DNA from: Schmidtea nova
Lineage: Eukaryota
Direction of reading: 5' to 3'
Length of the DNA stretch: 64,000 bases
Assembly: GCA_044892505.1 (NCBI GenBank)
Contig: CM097883.1
Coordinates: forward strand, 391,592,001 to 391,656,000
In this document: positions 9,001 to 64,000 of the stretch, piece by piece
How positions within the stretch are numbered: position 1 is the first letter of the stretch
Layout: every line of letters starts with the position of its first letter
Notes under the pieces: model-generated
The model's database searches: none
Told to the model about the DNA's origin: nothing
What the model saw: the letters and a program-made list of their open reading frames with translations, nothing else
Position numbers and translations under genes: made by a program

Positions 9001-9147
9001 TTTCCCATATTTTCGTTTCAATTCTCGTTGCTTCCTTTCATCTTCACGTTTTTTATATTCAACTTCTACAAGTTTATCATTTATTGGAGTTGGATAGTCA
9101 TGCGATCGGTAATTGCGCTTTTTAGTGATTGGTATTTTAAAATTCAT
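6049..9147 (-). CDS. PRP16: Pre-mRNA splicing factor ATP-dependent DEAH-box RNA helicase PRP16 (DHX38), single exon, 1032 aa
   Basis: Motifs GETGSGKT, IIMDEAHER, TSAT, STNIAETS, QRAGRAGR, followed by HA2/OB regions. The N-terminal FTKQFEPVIPVKD...AKNGSQVV block and RRSDLRLIVTSATMDA match PRP16 rather than PRP2/22/43. Confidence 0.93.
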   Translation of the reverse strand: MNFKIPITKKRNYRSHDYPTPINDKLVEVEYKKREDERKQRELKRKYGKSEDSKLKLPKHNEIDRHKQWEEPTPSSSYHDSKREVSEIRTPRINSSIKTPSACTWDVDDDLFKRSGSVNSNFDQSVRSEAKWSPKEEELDIEWYLNDGMDYNPFAEFSDDNLEKKKKKQLQNQSNVAKSRKTARAQQYEESNRAWEEGKIISSGAAVRKKFDIHIDNEDTGEDRIHLHVHNILPPFLDGRIIFTKQFEPVIPVKDENSDMAKIAKNGSQVVSAYRDVKEKLKLQKRGLDMTGTNYGKIMGLETKDKEDNWNEINFKDSMKFCDKITDNEEMDCEEKLTIDEQRKRLPIFKVRRDLMRIIRENQVIIIVGETGSGKTTQLTQYLLEENFHRRGVIGCTQPRRVAAVSVAKRVADEVGTKLGERVGYSIRFEDCKGDNTVIKYMTDGILLRESLRDKDLDTYSVIIMDEAHERTLNTDILFGLLREIIQRRSDLRLIVTSATMDADKFSRFFGKCEIFRIPGRTFPVNVMYEKSSVLDPVAKAVNKAVDTHLGSDVNNGDILIFMSGQEDVEVTCEKIVETLENLKDKNPPQLIVVPLYSQLSSEKQSEIFKTNKSGFRRCIVSTNIAETSVTLDGIRYVIDNGYCKMKVYNSRVGMDSLQVYPISQASANQRAGRAGRTAPGICYRLYTIKQYEEDMLPMTVPEIQRTNLTNVVLLLKSLNIKDLMKFPFMDSPPQDNILNSMYHLWMLGALDNVGNLTTFGRNMSEFPLDPSLSKMLITSIEIGCSEEMLTIVSMLSVPSVFSRPMGYREQSDAAHEKFQVAESDHLTLFNVYRLWRDSGYSSNFCKKYYIHYKSMKRVREVRQQLKEIMIKSKMPLLSTRNFDEIRRCICSAYFNQAARWKGLGEYVNLRSGVVCHLHPTSSLYNMAFNADYVVYHELLMTTKEYMNFVTFVDARWLADSGHMFYSVKEQGESVSVRMLKEQKTVERMENDMKQIENSKLEKDNRIIQSERLPQSSKDYTYSRPRSSRCGL

Positions 9148-13296: not shown

Positions 13297-31625
<18,329 letters not shown>

Positions 31626-34378: not shown

Positions 34379-34793
34379 TTAAATCGGAAATATTATTCAT
34401 AAAAAACTTTTAAAATTTTGATTTATAATTTTGGGTATACGAAATTTCCAAACGATATAGCTTGAAAATTTTGTGTATACTTGTTTGGAAAATTCGCATA
34501 CGATCAAAATTAATTTTTTTAAAAATATATAATTCTATTATCAAAAATAATATATTATGAAAACCTAAAAAAATTTCGAATTAAATTTATAGAGTATAAA
34601 AATTATAAATCTAAAAATTTTATTATTATATTAAATAGTTACAAATTTTTAAAATTCTAATTTCAAATTAATCCTGAACTGATAAAAGTAACTAAAGAGA
34701 AACTAAAAGTTTTTATTCAATTTGAATAATGATTAATGTCTTAATATAGAATATTAAAACAAATCATTATTAAATATATAACATTCTTCCCCT

Positions 34794-35558
34794 CTAGGTT
34801 AAGTATCGTGACGGTACTTTTACTTGTCTTCCAGATCGGGTAGTCGATTCGCTTCCTGCTGGTTCTGTTGACGATAAACTGTCTTCAAATGTAGTCTCGG
34901 AATACCCGAACGTTTCTTGGGTGTCTTTCCCACTTTCAAATTCTGTACCGGTCGTATCAGCTGAGCTATTTGAACATGGTGCAAGGTGACTCGTCGATAC
35001 TGTGTCTGTCCTTCCATCTCTGTGTTGTACTCTTGCATAGTACGGCGAAATTGTCTCGATCAGTTTGACCTCATCGACAAGTGGATCATTTTTATAGCGA
35101 ATGTGGCGTTTTAGTAGGATGTTTTGATCAGTATTTCGTAGAAATTCTGGTAAATCACATCCAATTACGGACGCTCGATCAAATTTAAACATTCGATCGT
35201 GAGGTGTCGAATTAGTAGAGACGCACAGCAGTGATCTCATTGATGAAAGGGATACGTCCAATACTTTTTCCCAATGCTCCTTGCTCATATTGTTTTCTTT
35301 TAGGGCTAAGTTTATCGTTTTCAATAGAATTCCGTTAATTCTTTCGCATTGACCGTTACCTTGAGGATGATAAGGCGTTGTACGTGTTTTCGCCACTCCG
35401 TGTTTAATTAGAAAGTCATTGAATTGTCTGCTTTCGAATTGTGCTCCTCTGTCGCTATGTACTGACGAAGGTGAACCAAACAAGGTAAATAAACTGAACA
35501 TGTGTTTTATTACGGTGTCAGAATCAACGTTAGCACAAGGAAAGGCAAAAGGGTACAT
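34794..35558 (-). pseudogene. Integrase core/C-terminal fragment lacking the HHCC zinc finger and first catalytic Asp
   Basis: YPFAFP..VHSDRGAQF..TTPYHPQGNGQCERIN; the N-terminal part is absent; no chromodomain. Confidence 0.88.
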
Positions 35559-37783
35559 TCGACGATTGCCGCGGCCTCTTTTTCAATGATGGAGTGATTC
35601 CTTTCGGACTTTGAGAGTAAACGAGAAAAGAATGCAATCGGTCGGCCGTTCTGACTCAATACTCCGCCCAATGCATGGTCGGATGCATCGGTTTCAATAT
35701 CTAAAGGTTGATCTTGAGTTGGGGAATGTAGTGAAGCAGTTTGTAATTTGGTCTTCAGTAAATGTATTGTTTCGATGCATTCATTTGGCAGTGTGTTGCT
35801 TGACGTGAGTTCTTTACGAGAATCAGTTAGTATTCTCGTGTATTCTGAGCATCGTGGGATCCATTTTGAGTAATATCCAAAAAAACCTATTAAACGATCC
35901 ATTTCTTTTGTAGACGCTGGAATTGGAAGGTCCATGAGAGCCTTGAAACGGTCAGGATCTGGCCTTATTGATTGGTTTTCAATTACGTGTCCTAGAAATG
36001 ATATAGACGTTGTAGAAAACTTACTTTTGCTTTCGTTTATTTGTAGATTTTTTAATTTAGAGGCCTTTAGAAATTCTTTAAGGTTTTGATCGTGCTCTTC
36101 TTTATTTTTACCACCAATTATTATGTCGTCGAGATAAGCAAACGTTGACTGAAGATTGTGCTCTTGGATGAATTTATCGATGATTCTCTGAAAAATTGGG
36201 ACTGCGTTGGTGCAACCGAAAGGTAGTTTGGTAAATTCATATAATTTACCCTGTGCTTCGAAAGCAGTTAGTTGATAGTCTGATGGTTGAATTTGGACCT
36301 GATGATATGCTGACTTGAGGTCCACCTTACTGAAAATTGTGTTTTTTGCTATTTTAAAGAGCAGATCGTCAATTCTAGGCATTGGGTATGAGTCAAGATT
36401 AGTGTAACGATTGATTGTATTTGAGTAATCTATTACGAGCCGTTGTTTGCTGTTCTGGTTGATGGCGAAGCACTGTGCTCGCCAAGGACTTTGGCTTTCT
36501 TGAATGATTCTGTCGGAGAGGAGTCTCGATATTTCTTGGCTGATAAACTCTGAATTTTGTGAGGACCGTCGTGATGGCATAGCGATTGGTTTGATTTTAC
36601 TTATGTCAACTCCTGGCAAGAGCGGATACGTGTCACATGTCATTGTCTTGAGAGCTAGAGATAGTGTGATCGGATGTCTATCGCCACCAAGTTCTAGATT
36701 AATTCTCGAATGTCTTTTTAGGATGTCCATTCCAATTATCACTTTAGTGACCAGTGATTTGGAGACTTGGAAATGTGCCTCGTAGACCTTGTTTGCCAAC
36801 ATTAACTTTCCATAGTAGGTACCTAAAGTTGAGGATATCGATTTATTCGCAAGGAGAACCTGTTTTACTTCTTTGTGATTAAAGGTTAGATTCTTACTAT
36901 TGAGGAATTCTTCTGACACAAAGGACAAATCTGATCCCGTATCAATTAATGCTCGAACTGAGTTTCCATCGAGAAAAGCCTCAACTAAAGAATTTTGGGC
37001 ATTGATTGTTGCTAATCTAGAAATAGAGCCACTCTGAATCAGTCCGTCAACGTCCATGTTTGTTTCTTCAGTAGAGATAGACGCTATCTTTTTAGCTAAA
37101 CATACCGGACTCCAGTGACCTTTCTTCTGGCATTTGTTGCAAACAGAGTTTCTTGCTGGGCAACTAGATCGTGAATGTTTAGATTTTCCACACCATTGGC
37201 AGCCAGTAGTCATTGCTGATGTTGTATAAAGTGATCTGTCTACAGTTGGCTCTGACTGCTGATCCTGTCGAAGATAGTTAGAATCTTTTATTGCAGATTC
37301 TAGAGACATCGCAAGTGTAACCATGACTTGGAGGCTGACGTTTTCTAACTCCAAGAGTCTTTGTCGAATTTCATTTGAGCTGATTCCAAAGACTAATGCG
37401 TCGCTTATCATTAGATTATGATGTTCTTCTGCAGAGAGAGCTGGAGTTGGACACTTGTGAACTGCAACTGTGAGTCTTGTTGTAAAGTCTTCGATTGTTT
37501 CATTGTTCTCTTGCATCATTGTTCTGATCTTGAATCGCATGAGAGTTGATGAGGACCTCTTGACATGCCTTGCTATTAACTTTTGCATTGCTTCTTTGTA
37601 ATCGCTGCAATGTTCCAAGGTGATGAAAATGTTTGATGGCACCAACGAGAGAAGAGCTTCTAAACTGTCGTTGTCTGATAATGCCAGTCTTCTTATGTAT
37701 GTCTCGAACACACGCTTCCATTGGAGAAATTCATTTTCAGAGGCATTTTCCGGAAGAGCTTTTTGAAAGATTTTCAGATTCAT
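35510..37783 (-). CDS. Gag-protease-RT-RNase H (RNase H truncated)
   Basis: Zinc knuckles CQWCGKSKHSRSSC and CNKCQKKGHWSPVC, protease LIDTGS, RT LPFG/YLDD, RNase H ETDASD; homology stops at EKEAAAIVE. Confidence 0.9.
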   Translation of the reverse strand: MNLKIFQKALPENASENEFLQWKRVFETYIRRLALSDNDSLEALLSLVPSNIFITLEHCSDYKEAMQKLIARHVKRSSSTLMRFKIRTMMQENNETIEDFTTRLTVAVHKCPTPALSAEEHHNLMISDALVFGISSNEIRQRLLELENVSLQVMVTLAMSLESAIKDSNYLRQDQQSEPTVDRSLYTTSAMTTGCQWCGKSKHSRSSCPARNSVCNKCQKKGHWSPVCLAKKIASISTEETNMDVDGLIQSGSISRLATINAQNSLVEAFLDGNSVRALIDTGSDLSFVSEEFLNSKNLTFNHKEVKQVLLANKSISSTLGTYYGKLMLANKVYEAHFQVSKSLVTKVIIGMDILKRHSRINLELGGDRHPITLSLALKTMTCDTYPLLPGVDISKIKPIAMPSRRSSQNSEFISQEISRLLSDRIIQESQSPWRAQCFAINQNSKQRLVIDYSNTINRYTNLDSYPMPRIDDLLFKIAKNTIFSKVDLKSAYHQVQIQPSDYQLTAFEAQGKLYEFTKLPFGCTNAVPIFQRIIDKFIQEHNLQSTFAYLDDIIIGGKNKEEHDQNLKEFLKASKLKNLQINESKSKFSTTSISFLGHVIENQSIRPDPDRFKALMDLPIPASTKEMDRLIGFFGYYSKWIPRCSEYTRILTDSRKELTSSNTLPNECIETIHLLKTKLQTASLHSPTQDQPLDIETDASDHALGGVLSQNGRPIAFFSRLLSKSERNHSIIEKEAAAIVECTLLPFLVLTLILTP

Positions 37784-39569
37784 CTTGATTTCAAATTGAA
37801 TAAAATTGAACTGATAAAAGTAACTAAAGAGAAACTAAAAGTTTTTATTCAATTTGAATAATGATTAATGTCTTAATATAGAATATTAAAACAAATCATT
37901 ATTAAATATATAACAAATCCATCAAATTAATCCATCAAATTATCCATATCTTATAGTTGATTTCATTTTATAAAATTCCCAAAATTATTAAATAGTTATA
38001 TTATTTCATTAAAGTATCCTCCTAAACCTGAGAAACAACTATAAACAATATTTGCAAATCAAAATATCCTTATTACTCATTAGCATCTTCTTTATCTAAT
38101 ACCACACACGCAAATTTATTTATCCTATAAATGAATTCAAATTATATCGTTTCACTCATTACCATCCCATACACAGCATGCTGCATCCAGAGACTTTATA
38201 CAAAAATCCTTTCATTTATGTTCGTCGTTAAGTTACTGATAACACCCAATAACATTAATAATTTTATTTGCAAATAATAACATCCCATCATACTGATCAT
38301 TTATTGTAACATCCTATATAATAGTAACATAAGATATAATAACTAATTAGGTTGCGAGATGAAATTTTCCAAACGACTTTTATATAATTTCAATATAAAA
38401 TTGTCATATAGTATTTATTATTGAGACCTGTTTTTTGTGTTTATTCAAGACGGGGGGTTACAAAATAAATTAATAAAACAATTTAAAATTTTTAATGCGC
38501 ATATAAATAGTGAATAGGTGAAAGAGAGACATGAGACAGAAATTTTTTTCAAATTAGCAACATGACAATCGTTGCTAGTTGCTACAGCCTCGGTGTTGAT
38601 TTGAAATTCTAACATTAAAATTTAATATAAATTTTTAATTAATTTTGAGAGCATAAAATGAACAATTCATTGCACTATGACTCGTATTTAAATAAGATTT
38701 GCATAAAACTTTAAGTTGAAATTGAATAATCGAAAGAATTATGAAAATAATAGTCAATTGGATTCAAAATTACAGCAATTGAATAACACCGAATATATAT
38801 AATTTTTTCTGAGAATTAGATCCCCGAGTTAAGTGGTGTTCAGTATTGATTAAAGAATCATGTGGTGTTAAGGATAAATGAAAATGTTTGCTTTATTGAG
38901 ATTATTTAGATTTTTCCCCTGAAAATTAATGTTTTATTTGCAACAATTGAATAATATTCGTTTTAGATTCATCTGACAAATCAAGTTAACATCCTATTTG
39001 ACTGAAGGATTTGTGAAGTAAGACTGCGTGCCGCGCGTCAAGTTTTTATTGGCTTTAATCTAACTTTTTAAAAGAATGGCAATATCATATTTCTCAGTTG
39101 AAGTCAAAAGTTCATCAATTAATGAAAATGATTGGATTCATTTTTCCAAAATAATGAAATCCTTCAATAATAAATTAAATTATTTTATTTTAAACTAGAT
39201 TACACATAAAATATCAAAACGTACATTAAATATCACAAAATATCATTACATACATATAGATAATTGTCAGATACAAGAAATATTATCACAAAATATTAAG
39301 AATACAATATTAAGAATAAATTGAGCTATGACATCAATAAATCTGATATTATCTTATAACAAATTTATGTTCAAGCTTTTTTTCTAGAACAAAGACCATG
39401 AGTCATACAAAATCGGATGACTTATCATTTTGAAGCATGGCTCACCCTTTACAAAACCCATGAATGACCTTGATGACTCATAGCTTCACGGACAACTCTG
39501 ATTGTCTGTGCCGAAGAACATCCTTCACATTACTGTAGAGTTTTCCTTAAAATTGTTGAGGATACCTAA

Positions 39570-47009: not shown

Positions 47010-49849
47010 TAATTATAAATTGAGAAGCGATAGAGAAAAAAATATTTTTCAATACAAAATTAGGTGATAATACCCGGTGGAAACTGTTAATGAATAGTTT
47101 TGGACTACTGGATTTAGATGAAAGACAAGAAATGGTTAATTATTTAATATATCAAAATGGTAAAACAGACGATTTCTTTAAATTCTGGGACAGTCCAAAA
47201 TTAAAAAATAGGCAGCAGCAGCAATAAAAATACTTCCATTTAATCGTGAAAATTTTTCGGGTATCTGAAGTTTTCAGGTGACCTGTCTCGAAAAATTCGC
47301 GCGCACTTTACTCGGAAAATTCACGCTTGATCTAAATAAAAATTCACAAAATCGGATATCGAAAACACTATGACACAAAGAGTTGATTTTGAATGATATT
47401 TGAAGTAAAATATTAATTTGAAACGGTTATGATGTCGTATAATTTTATATAATTTTGATTTATTTAATTTATTTTTATCTTATTTAAAAAATTTAATTTA
47501 ATTATTACATAAAATTTTTTATTAATTTACGAATCATATAAAATTTCAATGGATTTCAATGTCTTATGTTAGGCAAATACTGATATTTGTATAAATAGCG
47601 CGGTATTATAATATGTAGAGAGCGCGCGAGGAAGTAGATTTGAAATTCTATGAACCCAAAACACCATGTACAGCTCAGTAGCAGTAGAACACATGAAATA
47701 GTTGATTAGAACACGTCGAAAAATTGAAACGAACAACAGTGCATTGAGTGTATACGTGAAAAACATCAATAGTGTAATAGAATATCTTTTCGGGAGAAAA
47801 TTTGCAAATTTTAGTATAGAAATTCAAAAAATAGGAAAGAATATTGTTTTAGTTAGAAATTACGATAAATTAATTAAATTTGGAAAAACTTTGTTATAAA
47901 AATGAAATTTTAGATCAAAAATAAATTATTTAGGATTTATTTAAAATTTTATGCAAAAATAATAATTCAATTTTGCGTAAAATTATTGAAATTAATTTTT
48001 AAGAATCGAAAAATCCTTCTAGAACAATTTGTTTTAATACATTAGCGAAAGCAGCAATTCGAACAACTATATATACCGCCATCAAAATGGATTACTTACA
48101 CTTTTGACTTTTTTTAAAAGTTATTTTCGTCAGAATTTTTGCGGCAGCCATCTTGAAATCTACATTTAGGCGAATCCCTCGAAAAATTTTTTAATCAACA
48201 CAGTAACACAAAGTCTCATTACTCAGAGGAGAACTTGCACGAAGCGTCTCGTAAACCGATTGAAAATGTTGCAGCTGCCATTTCTAAAATTTTACGGATA
48301 TGCGAATCCCTCCACAAAATTTTACCGAATATCGAACCTGAGAAATACGATGTAAGAATTATGCTTATATGATTTAGGGCTTGCGGGTCATGCCACCCTT
48401 ACCCATACTGGTATCATTTTTTTATTTATTCTTTTTTATGGTGTTTAGGATTTAGCTATTATTGTTATATGTGTATGACATTTTTGAACCTTAATTTTGA
48501 AAAATTAAAATTTATGATCTATATTATGCCTCTTTGCTATTACCAAATTACTTTGAATTAAATCGGAAAGAATTTTTAGGAGAACCTGCACATTTACCCA
48601 TATGATATTTAATTCGATCTAATGTTCAAATTATTTTATTATCATATAATTAATTTTTCTAATTAATGCCTTTTTTTCCATACGTCTGATGGTGGTCCAC
48701 CTAGTCGTTTTACCGCCATTAGTCGCTTTGGTTAATCATTAGTTCGCTGGAGTCCTTTCAGCGTTTTTATCCATTTTTTCATCGAAGTGAGCGCATACAC
48801 CCAATCTCGCTTCATCTCATACTTGGCTATATGAGGAGTAGTGGTTTGGCCAAGCGCGAGGTTTTGTTCAAAGTAGAATTATTTATACTATATTATTGTA
48901 GGTATCTTTATCTACACATGAAATTCTGACTCACAAAAATGTAAAATGCCGAAATGCCAAAAAATGCTGAAAAATTTAATTCTCGTAATTTCGCCTTCGT
49001 TCTAATCAATGCCTTTTCGTCTGGCTCACAAATTAATTCGCAAATCATCTGAAAATCTCCACCAAAAATTCGTATTGTTAACAGTTATAAAAGAAAAGAA
49101 TGTTCAGATATTTCAGATGACATAAAGAAAAGTTTATTTTTCAGTGAACCTCATTTCACCCGAACGAATGTTTAAAAGTAAAAAATTAATTTTATTCACA
49201 CCCTCAGTACTCAAGGTAAAAATGACACTGACTTCAAATGACATCTCACACTGAATTTGGTTGCCGTATTTATACTTTTTTGCTGACGGCCAGCCAATCA
49301 GATTTCTCTGCATGCGATTTTTTAAGCATTTCATTTTTAATGCTCATCTATACTTGTTTAATCCGGTGAGTTTTATATTTACTCAACCGTTAATTTTTTT
49401 TATTCAATTTGTTTTTAGATATCATGCTTCGTTCGCTGTCCGACTACTCACTGTCAATTTGAGTGGTTTATTCTATTTTAGGTTTTTCTTGGTGTTCTGC
49501 GTGAGTAGGTTCTTATTGTTATTGTTCATTTAATTCAATTACTCGTTCCTTTCAGGCTTCATTGGGTACTGAAGAAATGTCAATGTTTGGTTATTTATTT
49601 TGTTTTGTTATTTATTTGTATTGAATTTATTTCTCTTAGATTGTCGATGATTTGCCTGGCCCAACAATTATCATTATTATTATCAACTTGTTAAGTTGCA
49701 GCTGCATTGCCATGTCTTTGTTTTAATTGTACAGACAGGTGTAGGAAAATAATTTGCAGTGGGTATGCCCATCATACTTGAGACTCGATTAAAATGGCGG
49801 ATACAATTTTGATAATATATATATTATCAAAATAAAATGTGTCATACAA

Positions 49850-52537: not shown

Positions 52538-52948
52538 TTAAGTAAATAACCTTTTTGAACGTAAATCGTCCGTTATCAGAGTTGGGGCCATGATGATCCC
52601 ACCTTCCGTTCCGCACGCGACATCTTGATAGGTGTTCTGAGTCCAGCGCTGAGCGGTGATCGGCCGGATTAACGCGCGTAATTCGGAGTCGATGTAACTC
52701 CTTGTCACCGCATTTAGGCAATTACGCAGTTCCCTCTGGACGGCATCGAGTTCCAATTTTGTTGCGGCTAGTGCTTCCTGCACCCGCTCAAGCTTTTGCG
52801 TTTGGCTCTTCATTTGTTCGGGTGAAAACCACCTCGCTTTCAATTCATCATTGGCGACCGTGAGTCGTTTGATCTGCCGTTGTTGGTCTCTCAACTTTCT
52901 ATCTTGGGTTTGACCCATGATTCTCTTGGAGTTTTCTGAAATCGGCAT
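52538..52948 (-). CDS. Orphan intronless coiled-coil ORF, 136 aa
   Basis: GC-richer than flanks; heptad-like QQRQIKRLTVANDELK and LERVQEALAATKLELDAVQRELRN. Confidence 0.5.
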   Translation of the reverse strand: MPISENSKRIMGQTQDRKLRDQQRQIKRLTVANDELKARWFSPEQMKSQTQKLERVQEALAATKLELDAVQRELRNCLNAVTRSYIDSELRALIRPITAQRWTQNTYQDVACGTEGGIIMAPTLITDDLRSKRLFT

Positions 52949-53296
52949 GATGTCTGAATGTTACAATGTTTAATTCGCTGGTGAACCTAACAACAACGTT
53001 ATTTTAGTTAAACGACTATTATTATTAAGGAGCGAAATGCGTACTAATGTTTTTAATTATGGGATTTTTACAAAAATTGTTTAGCTATTTAATTATTAGA
53101 GACTCGCAAAAATATTTAACTATTTTATACTGACGATAATTATTGCCGTGAACAACTACAACACTGGATATTAATAAACTTGTCTTGACTATATTTCTAC
53201 GCTACTGACGAACAAAATGAAAGACTCAAATTTCTCTAAAAACATTAAATTTAAATCATGTGGCCACATATTGGATGGATTAGGTGGATCCAACTA

Positions 53297-53814
53297 TCAT
53301 TCGTCGGTCATCTTCCCCCGATATGAAAATATCGACCGGATTTGTAGATTGATGTTGATTCCTGTAGGGTTGGATGAGGCTTGTTGGAGACGGGTCCTCT
53401 CGGCTTCCCGGAGGGGTCGGATTGCCGTATTGAAAGTAAACCCCAATTCCTTGAACGTGGATGCCGGAATGTATCCCCAATATATAACACAGCTCGGGAA
53501 TCCTCGCTTGTCCAACATCAGTATGAACCATTCGGCGTGCCATGGTTCGAATTCTTCATCGGGGACGATTGGCTAGTTAGCACAGCCTCGGTACCACACG
53601 TGATGACGTGGGTGGTCCCATACCGTAAAGGGACATGCTGTCTCTAACTCTCGGCGCCATGCCCACATTTTCTGGTGGAGTTGTTGCAATATTTCAAATG
53701 GAGCCGGTTTTAATGGGCTAATTCGGACTTGATTTCTTTTTCGTGAGCCCCGTTTCCAGCTCCACAGGTTCTGATTGCTTCTTTCTTTTGATGAACTGGT
53801 TTCGTCTTTGCCAT
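53297..53814 (-). pseudogene. Disabled member of the unknown family represented by 63266-63961
   Basis: The frame of ORF 53297-53518 extends upstream through one TAG (53575-53573) to APFEILQQLHQKMWAWRRE; the ATG at 53814 is out of frame. Confidence 0.65.
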
Positions 53815-55729
53815 TTTACTAGTAGATTATAATTTTTTAACGTTGAAAATTTTATATAGTAGTTAATTTAATAAACGTTATCTCTCCTCGTGTCAAAATT
53901 TTGGTCATTTTACTCCTTAGGCTCTATACGAAAAATCGTGGGAAAACTGTCGAATTGTAGATTACTCTCGGTATGTTACGCTGGTGTCTACCTGAATTTA
54001 CAAGGTACTATGGTAATTATGGTGAACATTATAGTCAAGGTCTGTGTGGACACTACGCTGTGGTGCTAGCGGCAAATTGTACTTTCTCAAAACCCAAAAA
54101 ATTATATATCTCTACGTTTTACAAGGAATCGTCCCTTCTGCATATAATACGATTGAAAATAGTCCACCGATGGTTTGTGGGTGTCCCATGTGCAAATTCT
54201 ATTGACTCTGGTTAGTTGATGATTACTTTACCGTGTGTGGAGCCCTCGAGCACCACGCCACGGACTGACATCTTGGGAACCTGAAGCTCCCAATCGGCGC
54301 AAAATTAATATGATTAAGATGTAAGTTAATGCAATCAAATATAACAATGCATAAATTTTAATGAAACAAAACATGATTATAATTATATCATCGAACAATA
54401 ATAATAATAAATATAAACAAAGTACCGAAATTGAATTTGCAAGGTTCAGTCAAAAATCGGTCCAAAATATGATTGTCTGTTAAAGATCGATCTAAATTGA
54501 ATCCAGAAGGTTCAGTCAAAAATTCGGTTTGAAGTTCAAATTGAATTTATGTACTTAATTACAAAGTGCAATGATATCAAATGGCTAGCTCTAACTAAAT
54601 TCTGATCGGTATATATACTGATCAGTCAAGTCTAGACTGGCCAATCAGGTTTGGCCGATTTCATGGTGGTTTTAATTATTATTTTGTTGATCCAATTAAT
54701 TTTTATTTTTTAGATTGGATTCTTTCTCGGTGGTCTAGTTTTTGGAAACAATTAACCAATAAAAAGTACTATTATTTTGTTTTAATCATTTATATTTTAT
54801 TTATTTTAGGTGTCCCTTGGGCCATTTACTGGTTAAATTATCGGAAATTCGTTTATTTTTTATTCTACAACCTATTTCTTAATTTATTTCTATTTTTCTA
54901 AATTATTTTATTCCCTAAAATTACTGTTTCTCCTTTTTCCTTATTTTTTCTCTTTTTCTCATTATTATTCTTTGTTTATTTTTCGTTGTACTCAGTTTGG
55001 CTAGCCCAACAGTATTACAAAATTTTTACATAGATAATTACACAACATTAAATATAAATAAGACAAGGCATTAAATGATTATAACATCTCTAATCAAAGT
55101 ATATAATATTATTATCAACAAACATATTAGTTTATTTAATCAAAATTAGTAATTATTAATTCAAACGGACACAAATAACCACATACAGTTAAAAAAATAT
55201 CCAAACATTACTAACGAGAGCTATTATGGTGTATAAAATATACAATGAAACAACAAATACATCGACATAATAATAAAAACTATAAAACACTCTTTGATTG
55301 AATGGACATGCTGTGACAACAAAACATTACAGTTACCATTCATGAATTACCGTGCAAATTGGATGGTATAGGAAAAGCAACTTCGTTGATAATCTACCAC
55401 TAATTAGCTCTTTTCTTAACCCAATTGAAACTCAAATACATCGTCATAAGTATTATATTTTAAGTTATAATAAATTTATATTTTCAGAATTTCAGAAAAT
55501 TCAATAGAAACTATTCCATTGAGTGAAGATGAAGTTAGAATATGCTATCACTTATTTTTCTTTATTAGAATATTTACTATATTAAAATTTACTATATTAA
55601 AATTTACTATATTTGCTAAATTAAAAGTATTTTAATATTTATTATTTATGAATTTCTTATAAATCAAACTTACTATTTGAGAATTGTTTGTTATAAATTA
55701 AATATATTATTGCAGACAGCCTAGTCAAA

Positions 55730-57788
55730 ATGAACAAAAGAAAATCTCAAGTTTGGGACTCTTCAGAAAATGAATTCTCAGCAAGCCAAATGCAATATTG
55801 ATTGTTGCCAAAAAATTATAAGTAAAGGTGGTAATACAACAGCGATAATAAATCATTTGAAAACGCACAGTATTGAAATTAAAAAAATATTTAATGAAAG
55901 TCCAACCAAAAGGGTTAAACCTTCTGCTGCAACTCCTCAACCAATGTTAGATTTCATACGACGAGAATCTTTGAATGAAATATTCGCAAAATGTGCAGCA
56001 AAAGATGGATTTTCTTTTCGTAGTATGGTAAAATCTGAAGCAATCAGAGGATATGTTACAAGCCGTAATTATACAATGCCAAAAAGTGCAGTTACCATTC
56101 AAAATTACGTTATGCAATTTTTTAATGAGAAACGTGAAGAAATGATAATCGAAATATCAAATTTGTTGAAGGCTGATAATAGATTTAGCATAACGGTGGA
56201 CGAATGGACTAATATATTAATGCGCAGATATTTGAATGTAACCATCCATTCTAAAACAAAAGATTTTGTTTTAGGTCTTATACACATTCAAGACCGCTGC
56301 ACTTCAGAAAAGACTAAAGAACTGGTGACACAAGGACTGCTTGAATTTGGTATAAAATTAGATACAGATATCGTTGCGTCCACTCATGATGGTGCTAGTG
56401 TTATGGTGAAATACGGCCAAATAATCGAAGTAGAGAGCCAGCTATGTTATAATCATGCAATACATTTAGCTATAGTTAAGATTCTCTACAAAAATAAAAA
56501 TTTTATAGATATCGAAACTGAATCCATAAACCAATATGAAGATGACGCAGATTTTTTTTTGGATTATGAAGATGATGAAGAGGATATTAGTTTTGGTGAT
56601 GAAAATTTATTGTTTGAGAACACCATTACAACAGCACCAGTAATACGTGAAAATGTAAAGAAATCATTGGATAAAATGCGCAAAATCATAAAATTTTTCA
56701 AAAAATCTGCGGTTCGAACTGAGATTTTGAATAAACACGTAATTAGCCAAGAAGGAAAAGTTCTTAAACTAATGCAAGACTGTAAGACCCGCTGGAATAC
56801 ACTTGTAACGGCCGTAACTCGATTTCAAAAATTACGTATATGTGTCAATCTTGCTTTGAAAGAGCTTGGTGCGGAAAAATTTCCAGATGAAAATATTGCT
56901 ATTTTAGTCGAAGTGGAAAGTGTTCTAGAACCTTTAATGCTAGCAGTTAAGGAATTAAGCAAACAAGATTCCGATCTAATTACTGCTGAAGGAACACTTA
57001 TTTACGTTTTCTAAAAATTGAAAAAGGTAAACACAATTCTATCAACAGAAATTTTAGAAACTCTGACAATTGAAATAGACCGACGTAGAAACAAAGAAGT
57101 TATTTCTTTGCTACTATTTCTTCATCATGGTAGTTATCCGAAATCAAATGAATTTTTTTCGTATTCAACAAAAATTATTATAAAGCTATCAGCAAAAAAA
57201 ATTAAGTCGCCTATATTCTGATCCTGTAGAAACTCTAGCTGATGAAGCTGATGATCAAAGAAGCAGTAACAATTTGTCAGGTGAAGTTATTGAGATTATT
57301 GAGAAAACTGCGTACGACGAACTAAGAGAGTGTGATAGTTCATTTACTGCACCGAAAACAATAACTGCCCCCATACATCAACTAAACATTGAGAAGGAAT
57401 TTAAGCTGAGTGAAGCTAACGGAAAAAGAACAGCGTCGTTGGACTATTTATATCGGGCTCTGATCACTATCAGTCCTACATCTACTACTTCAGAGGGAGT
57501 ATTTTCAGTTGCAGGTAATATTATCACAAAACTTGGCAGTCGACTATATCCAAAAGCACTAAATGCATTATTATTTTAAAGATATTACTTTACTTCTAAT
57601 AAATAAATGGGTAAATAAATAAAAAATGCAATATTGGCTAAATGTTTTGATTTTTAATGTGTTTTTTTAATATATTATAAAATTGAGGAGATTTTTCGGG
57701 TTATCCGGGTATCCGGGTATCCGGGTAATTGAAAAAAAAATGACTCGGCTACCCGGGTAGCAGTTTAATCGGGTATTTGGACACTCTA
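55730..57788 (+). mobile_element. Decayed hAT (Ac-type) transposon with BED finger; right end intact, left TIR not found
   Basis: KSQVWD..CNIDCCQKI..NHLKTH (BED), SITVDEWT, THDGASVM, CYNHAIHL, KTRWNT, TSEGVFS; several frameshifts/stops; subterminal ccgggta repeats and terminus gggtatttggacactcta. Confidence 0.9.
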
Positions 57789-59920
57789 ATTCCGCTTTAG
57801 TTATTCTCTGGGTGCCCCAAAATCAAAGCTTTCTTACCCTTTCTTTCATTTAGTTTTGTAATTGTTGTGTTACAAAGGAGCCAATAATTTCTTAAAGGCT
57901 GTCAGTAAACAGTAGGTATAAAGGAGATGACGCTAGACCTTCTTAGAAACCTTACACAATATAAGAAACAAGTAAACTGTTGTTAACGATGTGCCAACAA
58001 TGAATAAAATCTTTATTTTGCCTTAGAAAATTAACGGTGTTGTATCTTAGTTTTCCTTTCGTTGTTTGTTTGCAGTGATGGATGATAACTGGGAATAAGT
58101 TAGGTAGAATTTTACCTTGTGGTTTGAATGTAATCAAGTAGGGGATAATTACGGTGATGAGAAAGTATGAAGGCAGGTGATCGTAGTGTCTAAAATGATG
58201 CGGCAGTGATGACTTTAGTTTGTGGTTTGGGTGCGGATTAGAATGGATTGATAATTTTTATGCTAGTCTAAAAAGCGAAATCGATTAGGTGCAAAGAGAC
58301 GTCGGGAACGAAAGGCGTTTGGCGAACGGATGAACAAAGAGGTTGACTTGTTGAGTACCCTGTCGGAGACAATTGATAAATATAATCGATACATCTGTAA
58401 TTATTAAATAAATGTATTGTATTTTATGTGAATTAATTAATATTTGAGTGAATGATGGGTATAACAGAATTGTATGATGAATTATGACTTCATAAGAATT
58501 CAAAATAAGTGGAAATGAAAAACCACGTAGACCTTTAATCTATCAGAAAGAACCAGTAGGGGCAAGAGGGAATTAGTCACTGTAAAATAGCTCACCTGCC
58601 CTCTTGATCTGCACGGGCGCAATTAGAGACAATTCACGTGAACTAGTTAATAACAACATCGTAGTAACTCCATGTTACCCTAATCAACTAGAAGTTTTTC
58701 GAAATGTTTTTAATTAAATTCATATTTTCAGACTTTCAGAAAATTCTTCACTAAAAACGATTTAATTCAGCCAATATATATGGAAAGAATTATTTTTAAT
58801 TACAAAAAAAGCTTTTTAGCCTTTCATATATTCCCGGTTTGTCTACAGATTACACAACGTTCGATACCCTATAAATGTTCGAAATCAGAAGTTGGGCTTT
58901 ATATATGTTATGGTCAGATCTGGAATATTTATAAAATAAAATATGTTAATTTTACAATAAATAGAATAAAATTCCTAAATATATTTAAACAACTTATTTT
59001 AATATTTATCACTATTTATTGAATATTTACTAAATAATGTTAATTACACATTTGAGAATCATTTTATTTATTTGAATTAAAGGATTTCGGGTAGAATATT
59101 TTAAGTGATGTAAAAGGATCTACTTTGAGTTGTAGAGAAAATGAAGAAACATCGTCATAAGTATTATATTTTAAATTATAATAAATTTATATTTTCAGAA
59201 TTTCAGAAAATTCACTAAAAATGACTCCATTGAGTGAAGATGAAGATTAATATAGAAAGATTTATTTTTAATTACAAAAACAGTCTTTCAAATATTTTAG
59301 TTACGTTTACATATTACACATCGTTCGATACCCTATAAATGTTTTAAAATCAGAAGTTGAACTTTATATATGTTGTGGTCAGAAAAAGTTGAAAGAATTT
59401 ATCAGATAGTACCAACTAACCGAGGCTTAAATATGCCACTGGCTCTTGCAATTGGTTTAAAATGACCAGTAAATCACAAATTAATAGTAGGATCATTCAA
59501 AAAAGAAACTTACAAAGTTTCCATTCATAAATTACTGTCCAAATTGGATGGTATAGGATAGCATTTAATACATTATAATGCTTCGATACATGGTAAAGCA
59601 ATATCCTAAAACAAATTCTTTGATAATCTACCACTAATTAGCTCTTTTCTTGACCCAATTGAAATTCAAATACATCGTCATAAGTATTATATTTTAAGTT
59701 ATAATAAATTTATATTTTCAGAATTTCAGAAAATTCAATAGAAACTATTCCATTACGTGAAGATGAAATTGGAATATGCTATCACTTATTTTTATTTATT
59801 AGAATATTTACTATATTCTTAGCATTTTAGATATTTCAGGTACCTTAACCAACTACACTACATCCGATACTAGACCCAAACAACCTTAAAAGAAATGAGA
59901 AAATTTCTCAACCAGCTAAA

Positions 59921-60420
59921 TTGCAACGAAGCAAGAGCAACAATTTATTCACATTAAAAAAGATGAGACGATGCAAAGCTTATCGAAATTCGGAGCAAGT
60001 CCTCGAAATAAAATTAGAGTATGTAACTCGATTCTCAGATGAAGCATGGCAAGATAAAAATTTGATTTATATCGACGAAAGCGGACTTAATTATTTTTTA
60101 AGGCTAGGATCTGGGAAGGAAGAAAAAGGGTGAAATAATTTATCAGGTAGTACCAACTAACCGAGGCCCAAATATGTCACTGGCTCTTGCGATTGGTTTA
60201 AAAGGACCAGTACATCACAAATTAATAGTAGGATCATTCAAAAAAGAAACTAACCAAGTTTTCATTCATGAATTCAAGTCCAAATTGGATGGTACAGGAT
60301 AGCATTTAATACATTATACGGCTTTGATACATTGTGGGGCAATATCAGAAAACAACTTTATTGATAATCTACCACTAATTAGCTGTTTTCTTAACCCAAT
60401 TGAAACTCAAATACATCGTC
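59921..60420 (+). pseudogene. Tc1/IS630-like DDE transposase remnant; partial duplicates at about 55290-55450 and 59395-59680
   Basis: LIYIDESGLN, VPTNRGPNMSLALAIGLKG, FLNPIE in shifting frames. Confidence 0.7.
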
Positions 60421-61199
60421 ATAAGTATTATATTTTAAGTTATAATAAATTTATATTTTCAGAATTTCAGAAAAATCACTAAAAACGAAGATGAAGATTA
60501 ATTTGGAAAGATTTATTTTTAATTACAAAAAATAAGTTTTTAGCCTTTCAAATATTCCAGGTACGTCTACAGATTTGATTTAAATCTACAGTTTGATTCA
60601 AAAATCAGAAGTTGGGCTTTAGGTCAGGCATGGAGTATGGATATAAAAATGGTGTTATTAAAAAATCTTTCAATAATTATATTTAAAGGCGGTTGACAAA
60701 ATTTTTTAAGTGATTCATAGGAATCTAATTTGAGTTGTCGAGAAAATGAAGAAACAATGTATTATATTTTAAGTTATAATAAATTTATATTTTCAGAATT
60801 TCAGAAAATTCAATTAAAAACAATTCGATTTAGCGAAGATGAAGATCTAATTTGGTAAGATTTATTTTTAATTACAAAAATAACTTTTGAGCCTTTCATT
60901 TATTCCAGGTACGTCTACAGAATGCACGTTGAAAAATATATATTTTATTTATATAATGCAAGATGTTAAGGTTTTCCCGAGTATCTTCTTAAAATTGTCA
61001 GAAAATACTGTGTTTAAATTATATCTTCCGTTTTTATTAAATCATAGCATTATAATTTATATGAATCAAGTGCCGAATAGTGACAAGACGTCTCTGAGAA
61101 GAAAATCCCTTTTTCAATATTACTTCGACATATCTGATTTAAGAGACGGGCCAGATAGTGATCGATCTACTTCGTTAATGGAAAGTCACAATAAAGCTG

Positions 61200-61360
61200 A
61201 ATTTGAGTTTAAAATAAAAGTTTTAAATCAAACTGCTTATTAATTATACATTCTAAGAAAGATCAAAAATAGCTGATATCTCGCCATTACTACTATAATT
61301 GTAAAAGACCTGTATGTAAGGAACATTCGAAAAAAGTTATAATTTGTAAAGAGTGCTGAG
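61200..61360 (+). pseudogene. piggyBac transposase C-terminal Cys-rich domain remnant
   Basis: KKDQK..YNCKRPVCKEHSKKVIICKEC* matches the piggyBac terminal C..C.K.VC.EH...C..C pattern. Confidence 0.65.
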
Positions 61361-62288
61361 AGAATGAACCTATTATAATTAATTTGACATTATACTTTTC
61401 ATTATTTTTATAGAATATAGTTTACATATGTTTTGGTCAATCCAGAAATAAATAAATGAATTTAATTGTTTATAAATTTTTGTCTTGTTATTGTAAGGCC
61501 CTGAGTTTCAAAGATAAAGGAAAATTAGATAAACAGTATATAATTTATTACTTTATTGTAACACTATTATAATATGCAACAGAATTTAGGTACCAGATTG
61601 AATTGAAGCAATTAAACGTTAGTAATGAAAAATTCACTTAAGTATAGATTATTTAGAAAAGCTAACTTTCAAAGAATGAATAATTGAAATTATTAGAGAA
61701 AGTCAATAATTTTACAGTTGATGTTAGTAAGACCGAAATTGAGTATTACAATAACCATAAAAAGAGTATCATTTTATTTTAAATAAATGTTATTAACTGA
61801 CTTTTTTGAATAATCTTCCAATTGTTCTTGCATGTTGTTTTATGTTATTTCGTGCAATATTAGATTAACTTTATTTTTATAATTGTTTTAACTAATTTAT
61901 GTATTTACATACATTTCCAATGAAAAATATATAAATTAATTTTAAAAATTAAATGTTTAAGTAAAATTCCAGGGAAAGACGACGACAACTGAAACAACGG
62001 TAAACAAGACTATTAAACATAATTAGGAAAAACGTTTTATTTTAAAAAAACGTTACAGTAAATTATAATGATAATGATATAATGATGACTAACGTTACAG
62101 CGAGACAATGTAGATAGATAACTTAACTTTTATTCATATTTTATACGAATAAAGAATGAAATATTATATAAAACATAAATAACGAATAGAAAAAGCTTTG
62201 TACTAACGATACCTCGGTTAGCACGAAATTGGTGTCAGAAGCAATTAGGGATAAACTTTAATGGCTCAATCATGCTTGTCTTGGAAAT

Positions 62289-62289
<1 letters not shown>

Positions 62290-62357
<68 letters not shown>
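62290..62357. repeat. (TA)n microsatellite; others near 1645-1670, 16676-16726, 26324-26406, 44704-44724
   Basis: Direct reading. Confidence 0.95.
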
Positions 62358-62361
<4 letters not shown>

Positions 62362-63265
62362 AATTGAAATGTAATTGATAAACCAATCTTTTATTTGACC
62401 GCAAGTTTTATCCCAGAAATCCACACACTCCGACAAGGCCGAACAAAAACCCCACCACTTATTTTTAAACATAAAAAAATTAAATAATAAATTATTATGT
62501 AAATAAATATTTTTATTTAATTTTATATTTTATATGAATAAAGAAATATTATATAAAACATAAATAACTAATAGAAATATTTTTTAGGCAAAAATACATT
62601 AAACAAGGGCTAATATTCAAAAAATAATATCAATGAAATGTAAAACTGCTTAGAAGAGAAAAAATTGATAAATATGGCAGATTTCATAAATCGCTAGTGT
62701 ATTTTCTAGCACAGCTGCATCATGATAAAGAGTGCTCATACAAAGTAACGAATAGAAAGGTTAAACGCATACCCGATACCCTACATAAAACCTGATGACG
62801 AGCATCCGAGTTAATAGTGTGTTCGAGACAGAGATAGACATAAAGGGGAACTCCCGCTAAGGCATGAGGAAAATTTTTCGCGGGTTAAATGTGTGATCAA
62901 ATTCGGAATCCAACCTCCCCAAGGCTTGATCATTTTAGTTGTCAACCCGGCTGATGATAATTGAGTGTGGAAAGTGTAATGAAACATTTAAAAATGATGA
63001 ATTGAGTGAAATAATAATATTCCAACAAACAATGAACAACATTATCATCGAGTCCACTGAAAGTCAAAATTAACTACAGTTACAGCAAATGATGCGTAAC
63101 AACAACTGTGGCCTACTCAAGGTATCTCATAGAGTAGAGTAGAATGATCAGACTAGCTAACAGACACCCACTAGATTGCCGACGATTAGTCCACTAAAAC
63201 GTGTGGATGAGTAGACGTATATATAGACACAGTGCTACTAACACTTTATTTGTAGAACCTGTAGA

Positions 63266-63961
63266 ATGAAGAGTGAGAAGACTGAGTTTACAGAATCGAC
63301 TACCTTTACTCACCCACTAGTGGAACCCAAGGAGATGAAAAGAAAGCGTCTTCACCCGACGATGAAGCGACAGATCAACTCTCGCGAAAAGGCCAAGTTA
63401 GGAGGGGTGGAAGGAGCACCTTTCTGGCTCATTAAACAAGCACAACGACACTTACGCAGATGGATGAGACAACACTCACACCCGACAGCCAGAGTCTCAT
63501 CCTGCTCTTTTACTTGCCAGCTCAGATGGGAAGGAGATGCAGGCTGGACGCCAATTCCGAATCAGTCAAAGACGAACTGCGGGCGATGGTTCATTCAGAT
63601 GATTAATGACGAAGGACAACCGCGATGGGTCCTGTGCTCCGGAACGATAACCGGTCCTGAGATGTACAAGTTGGGATACCTTCTCTTGGATAGACCCCGG
63701 TGCGGTGACACTGGTGAGATTCGACTCTATCCGCACGCTCCCGGAAGCGTAACCTTGGAGCTCAACCCGGATCCAAGTGAACTTAGATTATGGGAGGTAT
63801 TCGCCCACAACGACCAGAATTGTACCAGGCCGATGGAAAGCGACACGATGACAACCAGGCAGACCAGGAATTGCGACCTTTCCTTTAAGGAGAGACAGGC
63901 CGTAGCCGAACATCCGAAGACCAAATGTGTTATTATAAAAATAAAAATCTGTTTGTTTTAG
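63266..63961 (+). CDS. Orphan intronless ORF, 231 aa, unknown family
   Basis: Open, GC-richer than flanks, TATA-like tatatataga about 45 nt upstream, basic KRKR stretch; homology to 53297-53814 supports coding status. Confidence 0.65.
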   Translation: MKSEKTEFTESTTFTHPLVEPKEMKRKRLHPTMKRQINSREKAKLGGVEGAPFWLIKQAQRHLRRWMRQHSHPTARVSSCSFTCQLRWEGDAGWTPIPNQSKTNCGRWFIQMINDEGQPRWVLCSGTITGPEMYKLGYLLLDRPRCGDTGEIRLYPHAPGSVTLELNPDPSELRLWEVFAHNDQNCTRPMESDTMTTRQTRNCDLSFKERQAVAEHPKTKCVIIKIKICLF

Positions 63962-64000
63962 TGAAAGATTCTTGTTCTGTTTTATGAGCGAATGCGAACG

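What the first reader, a model, noticed from the sequence alone, without database searches (positions are those of the whole stretch)
53297..63961. Two diverged members of an unrecognised protein family 10 kb apart
53.3-53.8 kb (-) reads APFEILQQLHQKMWAWRRE..GCAN*PIVP..WFILMLDKRGFPSCVIYWGYIPASTFKELGF. 63266-63961 (+) reads APFWLIKQAQRHLRRWMRQ..GDAGWTPIP..WFIQMINDEGQPRWVLCSGTITGPEMYKLGY. The pattern WFIxMxxxxGxPxxVxxxGxIxxxxxxxLG(Y/F) is shared, and the TAG in one copy sits about where the other has Trp. Both are intronless, GC-richer than the host, with TATA-like motifs and basic N-termini. Protein-level similarity without evident DNA identity implies an old, multi-copy family, perhaps accessory genes of a large mobile element or endogenous virus.
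Basis: partly seen in the sequence, partly recalled or inferred. Interest (0 to 1): 0.7.

Follow-up and report, generated by a model that had tools for sequence, protein, structure and literature searches.

The report
Genes inside giant retrotransposon end-repeats
The two look-alike genes are broken copies of a gene that giant flatworm retrotransposons carry, with a second gene, inside their 3-kb end repeats; the pair is optional, under selection, has no relative in the databases searched, and likely encodes spliced helper proteins that regulate the element.

Summary
The similarity is real (score 85; 2,000 shuffles reach at most 55). Both ORFs are ORF1 of a two-gene cassette inside truncated LTRs of two families (A, B) of 28.5-29.5-kb Ty3/gypsy elements with the Burro domain set (gag, fusion glycoprotein, PR, RT, RH, IN, ankyrin; TRAF and RING ORFs). 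Solo LTRs have TG..CA ends and 4-bp target duplications (21 of 22); parents have 99-99.9% identical LTRs and a tRNA-Pro primer site. Both genes are under purifying selection (dN/dS 0.08-0.19) yet are the fastest-evolving genes of the element (27-28% identity between families, RT 96%). They lie downstream of the conserved LTR promoter, each behind a splice-acceptor-like site. Young elements exist whose LTRs lack both genes, so the cassette is dispensable in cis; within family B deep ORF alleles reassort on a near-uniform pol. No homolog or fold match was found. ORF2 has a coiled coil, an LC8-type motif and an Arg-rich stretch; a Rev-like regulatory role is inferred, untested. No RNA data. This scan noted the same LTR cassette before on other DNA of this genome.

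The parts
52563..55011 (-). Family A LTR, 3'-truncated: starts TGTTGGG at 55011, similarity ends near 52563 (about LTR nt 2560-2580 of 3300)
   Evidence: blastn against LTRs of full-length elements, 75-92% in pieces; nearest fetched copies 91% over 2.45 kb
54609..54648 (-). Conserved promoter-like module: inverted CCAAT box (54648-54641) and TATA box (54618-54609); promoter function inferred
   Evidence: same module at LTR nt 355-405 in families A, B, H; 3,583 exact pattern matches in G000, reversed control 0; coordinates
53297..53814 (-). ORF1 of family A, broken (ATG out of frame with the conserved part; premature TAG at 53575-53573); acceptor-like TAG a few nt before the ATG
   Evidence: 150 scored relatives at 81-100% identity
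52538..52948 (-). ORF2 of family A, cut short by loss of the LTR's 3' part; coiled coil and DVACGTE motif present, Arg-rich tail missing; acceptor-like CAG before the ATG
62697..64000 (+). Family B LTR, 5'-truncated (starts at about LTR nt 777, so it lacks the promoter module); runs 1,039 bp beyond the window and there carries an open 187-codon ORF2
   Evidence: 90% to solo LTRs L002-L006
63236..63264 (+). Branch-point-like TACTAAC (63236-63242), pyrimidine tract and two TAG acceptor candidates (ending 63255 and 63264) directly before ORF1; splicing inferred
63266..63961 (+). ORF1 of family B, 231 codons; frame shifted by an internal deletion near 63813

Best explanation
The two ORFs are damaged copies of ORF1 of an optional two-gene cassette inside the ~3.2-kb LTRs of two families of Burro-like giant Ty3/gypsy elements, and the cassette likely encodes trans-acting regulatory proteins made from spliced RNAs. 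Shown: location in LTRs, parent elements, purifying selection, dispensability in cis, reassortment, decay after insertion. Inferred: transcription starts near LTR nt 425; a short leader is spliced (or a spliced leader is added in trans) to the acceptor before each ATG, so the genes lie in R/U5 and an intact solo LTR would hold a whole expression unit. Most likely function (about 0.35 on its own): ORF2 works like Rev/Rex/Rem, an oligomeric (coiled coil, LC8-clamped) Arg-rich nuclear RNA-binding adaptor that shifts the element from spliced messages to full-length RNA; ORF1 is a small basic alpha/beta protein acting with it on the LTR or its RNA. Cassette-less elements would be served in trans.
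For: Solo LTRs: TG..CA ends, 4-bp duplication in 21 of 22 loci with both ends (of 30). Parents: 5 of 5 fetched pairs are 27.7-29.5-kb elements with 99.0-99.9% identical LTRs holding both ORFs; Pfam gag, zf-CCHC, Monjiviricetes_fusion, RVP, RVT_1, RNaseH, rve, Ank, RING, TRAF/MATH; PBS 2,898 exact hits complementary to host tRNA-Pro(TGG). dN/dS 0.08-0.19 in five groups, dN<dS in all 130 usable of 180 pairs. YAG within 12 nt of the listed ATG in 15 of 18 A/B ORF1 rows and 15 of 17 ORF2 rows, against 158 of 606 control ATGs; family H has CAG-ATG or TAG-ATG. Promoter module upstream of both genes. A full-length element with RT 99.7% like B2 and 99.94% identical 1,566-bp LTRs lacks LTR nt ~1257-2900, i.e. 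both genes; two more such LTR pairs at 99.8-99.9%. 13-kb single-polyprotein relatives have 0.86-kb LTRs without the genes. ORF2 linker motif: TQT[ED] 50, TNT-type 32, xGTE 28, xGTD 26, none 6 of 142 scored; TQT and TNT are published LC8 anchors next to coiled coils (PMC3078936 abstract; PMC5746249 passages); 11-12 K/R in 20 residues in four families.
Against: No transcript evidence: start, donor and poly(A) site are read from motifs only, so U3/R/U5 borders are unproven. No processed genomic copy at the two junctions tried. The donor is only a loosely kept GTA[A/T] plus T-rich run. If ORF2 were an essential Rev, young cassette-less elements need trans supply, which is not shown. An export-signal pattern is found in 3 of 4 ORF2 tails and is weak. 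Families A and H have Gly at the motif's centre, not among the variants named in the passages read. ORF1 is missing in family J, so the two genes need not act together. ORF1 models are low-confidence (mean pLDDT 58 and 49) and give no functional clue.
Confidence: 0.55

Rival explanations
1. The cassette is an anti-silencing or host-antagonist module: ORF1 and ORF2 counter piRNA or chromatin silencing of the LTR, ORF2 possibly by soaking up LC8.
For: Fastest-evolving genes of the element; deep alleles reassorting within family B (ORF1 pS 0.50, ORF2 0.53, RT 0.15; ORF>RT in 61 and 66 of 66 pairs), as in arms races; Burro elements are PIWI targets (PMC8532177 passages). VANC proteins and the LC8 need of Drosophila Piwi silencing are recalled, not checked.
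Against: No positive selection was tested; the non-coding LTR middle is more diverged still (55-63% identity), so the depth may be a property of the LTR interior rather than of the proteins.
Confidence: 0.2
2. ORF2 (and ORF1) are particle or transport proteins that bring the element's core to the nucleus by dynein, or help spread between cells together with the envelope.
For: LC8-type motif beside a coiled coil; the parents carry a fusion glycoprotein.
Against: Env-bearing 13-kb relatives and young B derivatives do without both genes; the examined J element keeps ORF2 but shows no env hit.
Confidence: 0.1
3. ORF1/ORF2 are a toxin-antidote pair that makes cells dependent on the element.
For: Loss pattern fits: both lost together or ORF2 alone kept (families J, K); no ORF1-only family seen among those sampled.
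Against: ORF1 and ORF2 alleles reassort independently in family B (for example L339/L119: pS 0.11 versus 0.43); 5 of 21 solo LTRs have ORF1 open and ORF2 broken; no toxin-like fold found.
Confidence: 0.1
4. A host gene family, or genes of an endogenous DNA virus or Polinton, unrelated to LTRs.
For: Many copies keep open frames (146 of 150 top matches without a stop in the 91-residue query).
Against: Every intact context examined is an LTR; both frames are open in only 6 of 21 solo LTRs; private changes have omega about 0.5 with stops, shared ones 0.13-0.27, so selection acts during element replication, not after insertion.
Confidence: 0.03

Closest known systems
Burro1-4 / GYPSM1 giant Ty3/gypsy elements of Schmidtea mediterranea and the Dugesia tigrina Burro-like element (PMC6431247, section 7 read in full; figure not seen)
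   Same: About 30 kb; one huge polyprotein with Gag, zinc knuckles, env between gag and PR, PR-RT-RH-IN, ankyrins; MATH/TRAF and RING cargo; thousands of copies; flatworm host.
   Different: Here TRAF/MATH is a separate ORF downstream of pol; BCL2, BIR, dUTPase and SUMO were not detected by Pfam at E 0.01; the text read mentions no genes inside the LTRs. The original description (Grohme 2018) was not held, so LTR ORFs may be drawn there.
MMTV sag/naf (PMC9412291, passages read)
   Same: Protein-coding ORF inside the LTR, therefore present at both ends of the provirus.
   Different: sag lies in U3, upstream of the main start site; here two genes lie downstream of the only conserved promoter module (R/U5 by inference), in an invertebrate Ty3/gypsy element; no sequence relation found.
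Rev-like export proteins of complex retroviruses (Rem described in PMC9412291 passages; Rev, Rex, Rec recalled)
   Same: Small, likely spliced accessory gene; oligomerisation helix plus Arg-rich stretch plus Leu-rich tail, in an element that needs both unspliced and many spliced RNAs.
   Different: No sequence or structure match; no response element or export activity shown; dispensable in cis; carries an LC8-type motif.
Additional ORFs of plant LTR retrotransposons such as Grande, RIRE2, Retand, Ogre (PMC7264820, passages read)
   Same: Conserved orphan ORFs kept in most copies, suspected regulators.
   Different: Those lie in the internal region, often antisense; these lie within the LTR, in sense, and are spread by solo LTRs.

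Membership tests
LTR of a Ty3/gypsy retrotransposon | TG..CA termini with short target-site duplication | tested here: met
   4-bp duplication in 21 of 22 solo loci with both ends and around full-length A1 and B1. The two window copies are truncated and have no testable duplication.
LTR of a Ty3/gypsy retrotransposon | Direct repeats flanking gag-PR-RT-RH-IN in gypsy order | tested here: met
LTR of a Ty3/gypsy retrotransposon | tRNA primer-binding site behind the 5' LTR | tested here: met
   complementary to host tRNA-Pro(TGG) genes
LTR of a Ty3/gypsy retrotransposon | Polypurine tract before the 3' LTR | tested here: inconclusive
   a conserved stretch with only a short AGGGG run precedes the 3' LTR
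Burro / GYPSM1 | About 30 kb with a giant polyprotein and env in frame between gag and PR | tested here: met
   28.5-29.5 kb; Monjiviricetes_fusion E 1e-68 and 7e-71 upstream of RVP in one frame
Burro / GYPSM1 | Ankyrin, MATH/TRAF and RING cargo | tested here: met
   TRAF position differs from the published layouts
Burro / GYPSM1 | BIR, BCL2-like, SUMO-like and dUTPase-like motifs | tested here: inconclusive
   no Pfam hit at E 0.01; the paper used HHpred, not available here
Burro / GYPSM1 | Sequence identity or RT clade with named Burro1-4 | not testable with these tools
   no Burro reference sequence on hand
Rev-like export adaptors | Arg-rich RNA-binding / nuclear signal | tested here: met
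   11-12 K/R in 20 residues in ORF2 of families A, B, H, J; motif level only
Rev-like export adaptors | Leu-rich export signal | tested here: inconclusive
   loose pattern in 3 of 4 ORF2 tails
Rev-like export adaptors | Binds a response element and exports unspliced RNA | not testable with these tools
   needs experiments
LC8/DYNLL client | TQT-type anchor in a linker beside a coiled coil | tested here: met
   TQT in family B, TNT in J; Gly-centred variants in A and H; motif per PMC3078936, PMC5746249
LC8/DYNLL client | Binding to LC8 | not tested
Any known protein family for ORF1 | Significant profile or fold match | tested here: inconclusive
   no family over threshold; models of low confidence

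The most novel reading that the evidence does not exclude
An invertebrate LTR retrotransposon has evolved a complex-retrovirus control circuit whose regulator genes sit in the transcribed part of the LTR: every intact solo LTR is a self-contained two-gene unit that can supply a Rev-like, LC8-clamped protein in trans to cassette-less elements and can feed old alleles back into active elements by recombination.
Probability: 0.2. Interest if true: 0.8.

Novelty: new variant of a known kind. Interest (0 to 1): 0.5.

Why it matters
Solo LTRs are normally treated as gene-less regulatory debris. Here thousands of them carry two selected, orphan genes behind their own promoter, in a genome of a group where these elements are PIWI targets in somatic cells. 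The genes can be knocked down as families by RNAi, which makes it testable how a 26-kb genomic RNA with many accessory messages is regulated. The cassette also shows an odd population pattern: deep, independently reassorting alleles on a nearly uniform pol, with cassette-less young derivatives. If the proteins prove to be passengers, the finding remains an unusual LTR anatomy in an already known element type.

Tried and rejected
Homolog searches, all blank: Pfam for single ORFs and both alignments (scattered single-member hits below curated cut-offs or inconsistent), word-indexed search with ORF1 and the ORF2 alignment, profile search of 1.84 billion representatives with the ORF1 alignment (0 at E 0.001), PDB sequences (none; seven weak coiled-coil rows, six of them designed proteins), viral and metagenome contigs with single ORF1 proteins. 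Fold searches: Foldseek PDB and viral, none at E 0.001; VIA best Z 4.0 (rmsd 3.5, 75 aligned) and 3.5 (rmsd 4.1, 89 aligned), a generic helix-plus-sheet arrangement with several NTF2-like rows, not taken as evidence. ORF1 and ORF2 are not related to each other. No RNA holder listed; four contig sets of unknown type gave no informative joints. Processed-copy search at two guessed junctions: 2 chance hits and 0; LTR deletions seen were not GT-AG bounded. My first idea that each ORF has its own TATA promoter was dropped for acceptor-like sites after the earlier notes. The idea that A and B share a recently swapped pol was rejected: synonymous sites are saturated in RT too. DNA transposon with terminal inverted repeats rejected by paired LTRs and PBS. 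Literature: searches found no description of genes inside Burro LTRs; Grohme 2018 was not held, and its figures and supplements may bear on novelty.
Full report
Observation. Their local alignment scores 85 against 2,000 shuffles with mean 31.6 and maximum 55; identity is 22% over 116 columns and no DNA alignment longer than 22 nt was found. Both copies are damaged: copy A has a premature TAG at 53575-53573 and an ATG out of frame with the conserved part; copy B has an internal deletion that shifts its C-terminal frame. The host is a flatworm by its PRP16 gene at 6049-9147, whose best normal-length hits are trematode and cestode proteins at 64-66%; a planarian is likely from the element type.

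What it is. Copy B finds 3,165 first-look candidates in G000, of which 150 were scored, at 44-100% identity. The 30 best loci share a unit of about 3.15 kb with a second ORF of 187 codons. Of these 30, 22 show both ends; they begin TGTT, end AGCA, and 21 have a 4-bp target duplication. Copy A finds 2,069 candidates and is also followed by an ORF2 homolog. Matches often come in pairs 25-26 kb apart. Five such pairs were fetched: all are elements of 27.7-29.5 kb with LTRs of 3.25-3.34 kb, 99.0-99.9% identical, that contain both ORFs. Pfam finds gag, zinc knuckles, a Monjiviricetes fusion glycoprotein, protease, RT, RNase H, integrase and ankyrins in the polyprotein, a RING ORF upstream and a TRAF/MATH ORF downstream. 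The primer site occurs 2,898 times and is complementary to host tRNA-Pro(TGG). This matches the Burro elements as described in PMC6431247 (section 7 read in full). In the window, copy A is a family A LTR from 55011 down to about 52563, lacking its 3' part; copy B is a family B LTR lacking its first 776 nt. They are independent insertions on opposite strands, not two ends of one element.

Distribution of the cassette. ORF1 was found in families A, B and H; ORF2 in A, B, H and J, with a more distant ORF2-like gene in part of family K that the ORF2 profile does not detect. Five env-bearing elements of about 13 kb have 0.85-0.89-kb LTRs without either gene. One full-length element with RT 99.7% identical to B2 has LTRs of 1,566 bp, 99.94% identical, that lack nt ~1257-2900 and with them both genes; neither profile hits elsewhere in its three tiles, and two further short-LTR pairs are 99.8-99.9% identical. 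The cassette is therefore not needed in cis.

Selection. Pairwise dN/dS is 0.19 and 0.10 for ORF1 (B, A) and 0.08, 0.11, 0.09 for ORF2 (B, A, J); dN is below dS in all 130 usable of 180 pairs, the other 50 being saturated. These sets were chosen for open frames. For ORF2 in loci picked by ORF1, shared changes give omega 0.13-0.27 and private changes about 0.5 with 3-6 stops per set; both frames are open in 6 of 21 solo LTRs. Selection thus acts while elements replicate and relaxes after insertion. Between A and B, synonymous sites are at or near saturation in every gene (pS 0.64-0.84), while amino-acid identity falls from RT 96% to gag 63%, TRAF 53%, ORF2 28% and ORF1 27%. Among 12 full-length B elements, picked by LTR-end motifs, RT pS is 0.11-0.20 but ORF1 and ORF2 average 0.50 and 0.53, higher than RT in 61 and 66 of 66 pairs, and the closest partner differs between the two genes; 11 A elements, picked by ORF1 likeness, give 0.26, 0.24 and 0.13; the single H pair shows no excess. 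The non-coding LTR middle is the most diverged part (55-63%), so this may reflect LTR recombination in general rather than selection on the proteins.

Expression model (inferred). The only promoter-like module shared by A, B and H is an inverted CCAAT box and a TATA box at LTR nt 355-405, with 3,583 exact matches and none for the reversed control. Both genes lie downstream of it, so in R or U5, unlike MMTV sag, which lies in U3 (PMC9412291 passages). A YAG lies within 12 nt of the listed ATG in 15 of 18 A/B ORF1 rows and 15 of 17 ORF2 rows; in family H the second Met follows CAG or TAG directly; the rate for all ATGs in nine LTRs is 158 of 606. The rows are related, so the independent units are about eight gene-by-family groups. 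I took this lead from earlier notes of the scan and tested it here. A loosely kept GTA[A/T] 90-230 nt behind the TATA box is a donor candidate, and AATAAA words follow each ORF, which in AT-rich spacers may be chance. Cis-splicing and spliced-leader trans-splicing cannot be told apart; no processed copy was found at two guessed junctions.

The proteins. Neither has a detectable relative outside these elements. ORF1 has a basic, variable N-terminus and a core predicted as helix, three or four strands, helix; the B model has mean pLDDT 58 with 78 residues at 70 or more, the A model 49, and both place the same elements in register. No fold match stands out. ORF2 has a coiled coil with an invariant WF, a linker motif at a fixed place (TQT[ED] 50, TNT-type 32, xGTE 28, xGTD 26, none 6 of 142 scored among 149 ORFs, with some loci fetched twice; no such word in 22,502 ORF1 residues), an Arg/Lys-rich stretch and a Leu-rich tail. 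TQT beside a coiled coil is the LC8 anchor (PMC3078936 abstract) and TNT a tested variant (PMC5746249 passages); the host has many intronless LC8 genes. Binding was not tested.

Mechanism. I commit to an optional, trans-acting regulatory cassette, with ORF2 working like Rev/Rem: the element has to balance one very long unspliced RNA against many accessory messages, the simple 13-kb relatives lack the genes, and ORF2 has the parts such adaptors use. This functional step rests on motifs and analogy only (about 0.35); anti-silencing, particle transport and toxin-antidote readings remain open. The anatomy (genes in LTRs of Burro-like elements, under selection, dispensable in cis) I rate at about 0.95.

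Novelty. Burro-type giants are known; membership in a named Burro family could not be tested. Genes inside their LTRs were not found described in six searches (listings seen, plus passages of PMC8532177, PMC11410931, PMC13524379, PMC7264820), but the primary paper was not held. Other agents of this scan already reported the same two-gene LTR on other DNA of this genome. Verdict: new variant of a known kind, interest 0.5.

Noticed in passing
L031:5513-7297 (about 5.5 kb beyond the window end): A third LTR, family B, 75% like copy B in its ORF2 half, with an open 211-codon ORF1.
   Followed up: partly
window 49587-49666 (-): An 80-bp fragment of a family B LTR 5' end (75%).
   Followed up: no
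window 34660-37915 (-): Small Ty3/gypsy-like element with 128-bp direct repeats (94.5%) and ORFs of 757 and 254 codons (gag-pol-like by inspection).
   Followed up: no
window 55770-57014 (+): 414-codon hAT-type transposase-like ORF (weak zf-BED and DUF659 hits).
   Followed up: no
window 6049-9147 (-): Intronless 1,032-codon PRP16/DHX38 helicase, used to place the host among flatworms.
   Followed up: partly
window 31101-31625 (+): Tandem 30-nt repeat open in two frames (PxYPGSGPN and [10 protein letters not shown] repeats).
   Followed up: no
L111:1050-1200 (family B LTR, nt ~150-300): Donor-like GTAAGT / GTGAGT-type and acceptor-like words on the antisense strand of the LTR's first 300 nt, kept in several B copies; possible antisense spliced RNA.
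   Followed up: no
L235:4466-4975: A 170-codon ORF resembling TATA-binding protein (by recalled motifs) 2-2.5 kb upstream of a primer site, outside the part that aligns to family J LTRs.
   Followed up: partly
L368-L370 and L380-L382: Family K elements with RING, TRAF and IAP-like ORFs but no RT, integrase or env hit in the fetched tiles: possibly large non-autonomous derivatives; most K LTRs sampled have no ORF.
   Followed up: partly
L383 (G000:C1:459.6 Mb): Long tandem array of tRNA-Pro(TGG) genes with a 308-bp period; 1,105 matches to the pattern genome-wide. This is the element's primer tRNA.
   Followed up: partly
L311-L322: Clusters of near-identical intronless dynein light chain (LC8) genes on C2.
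   Followed up: no
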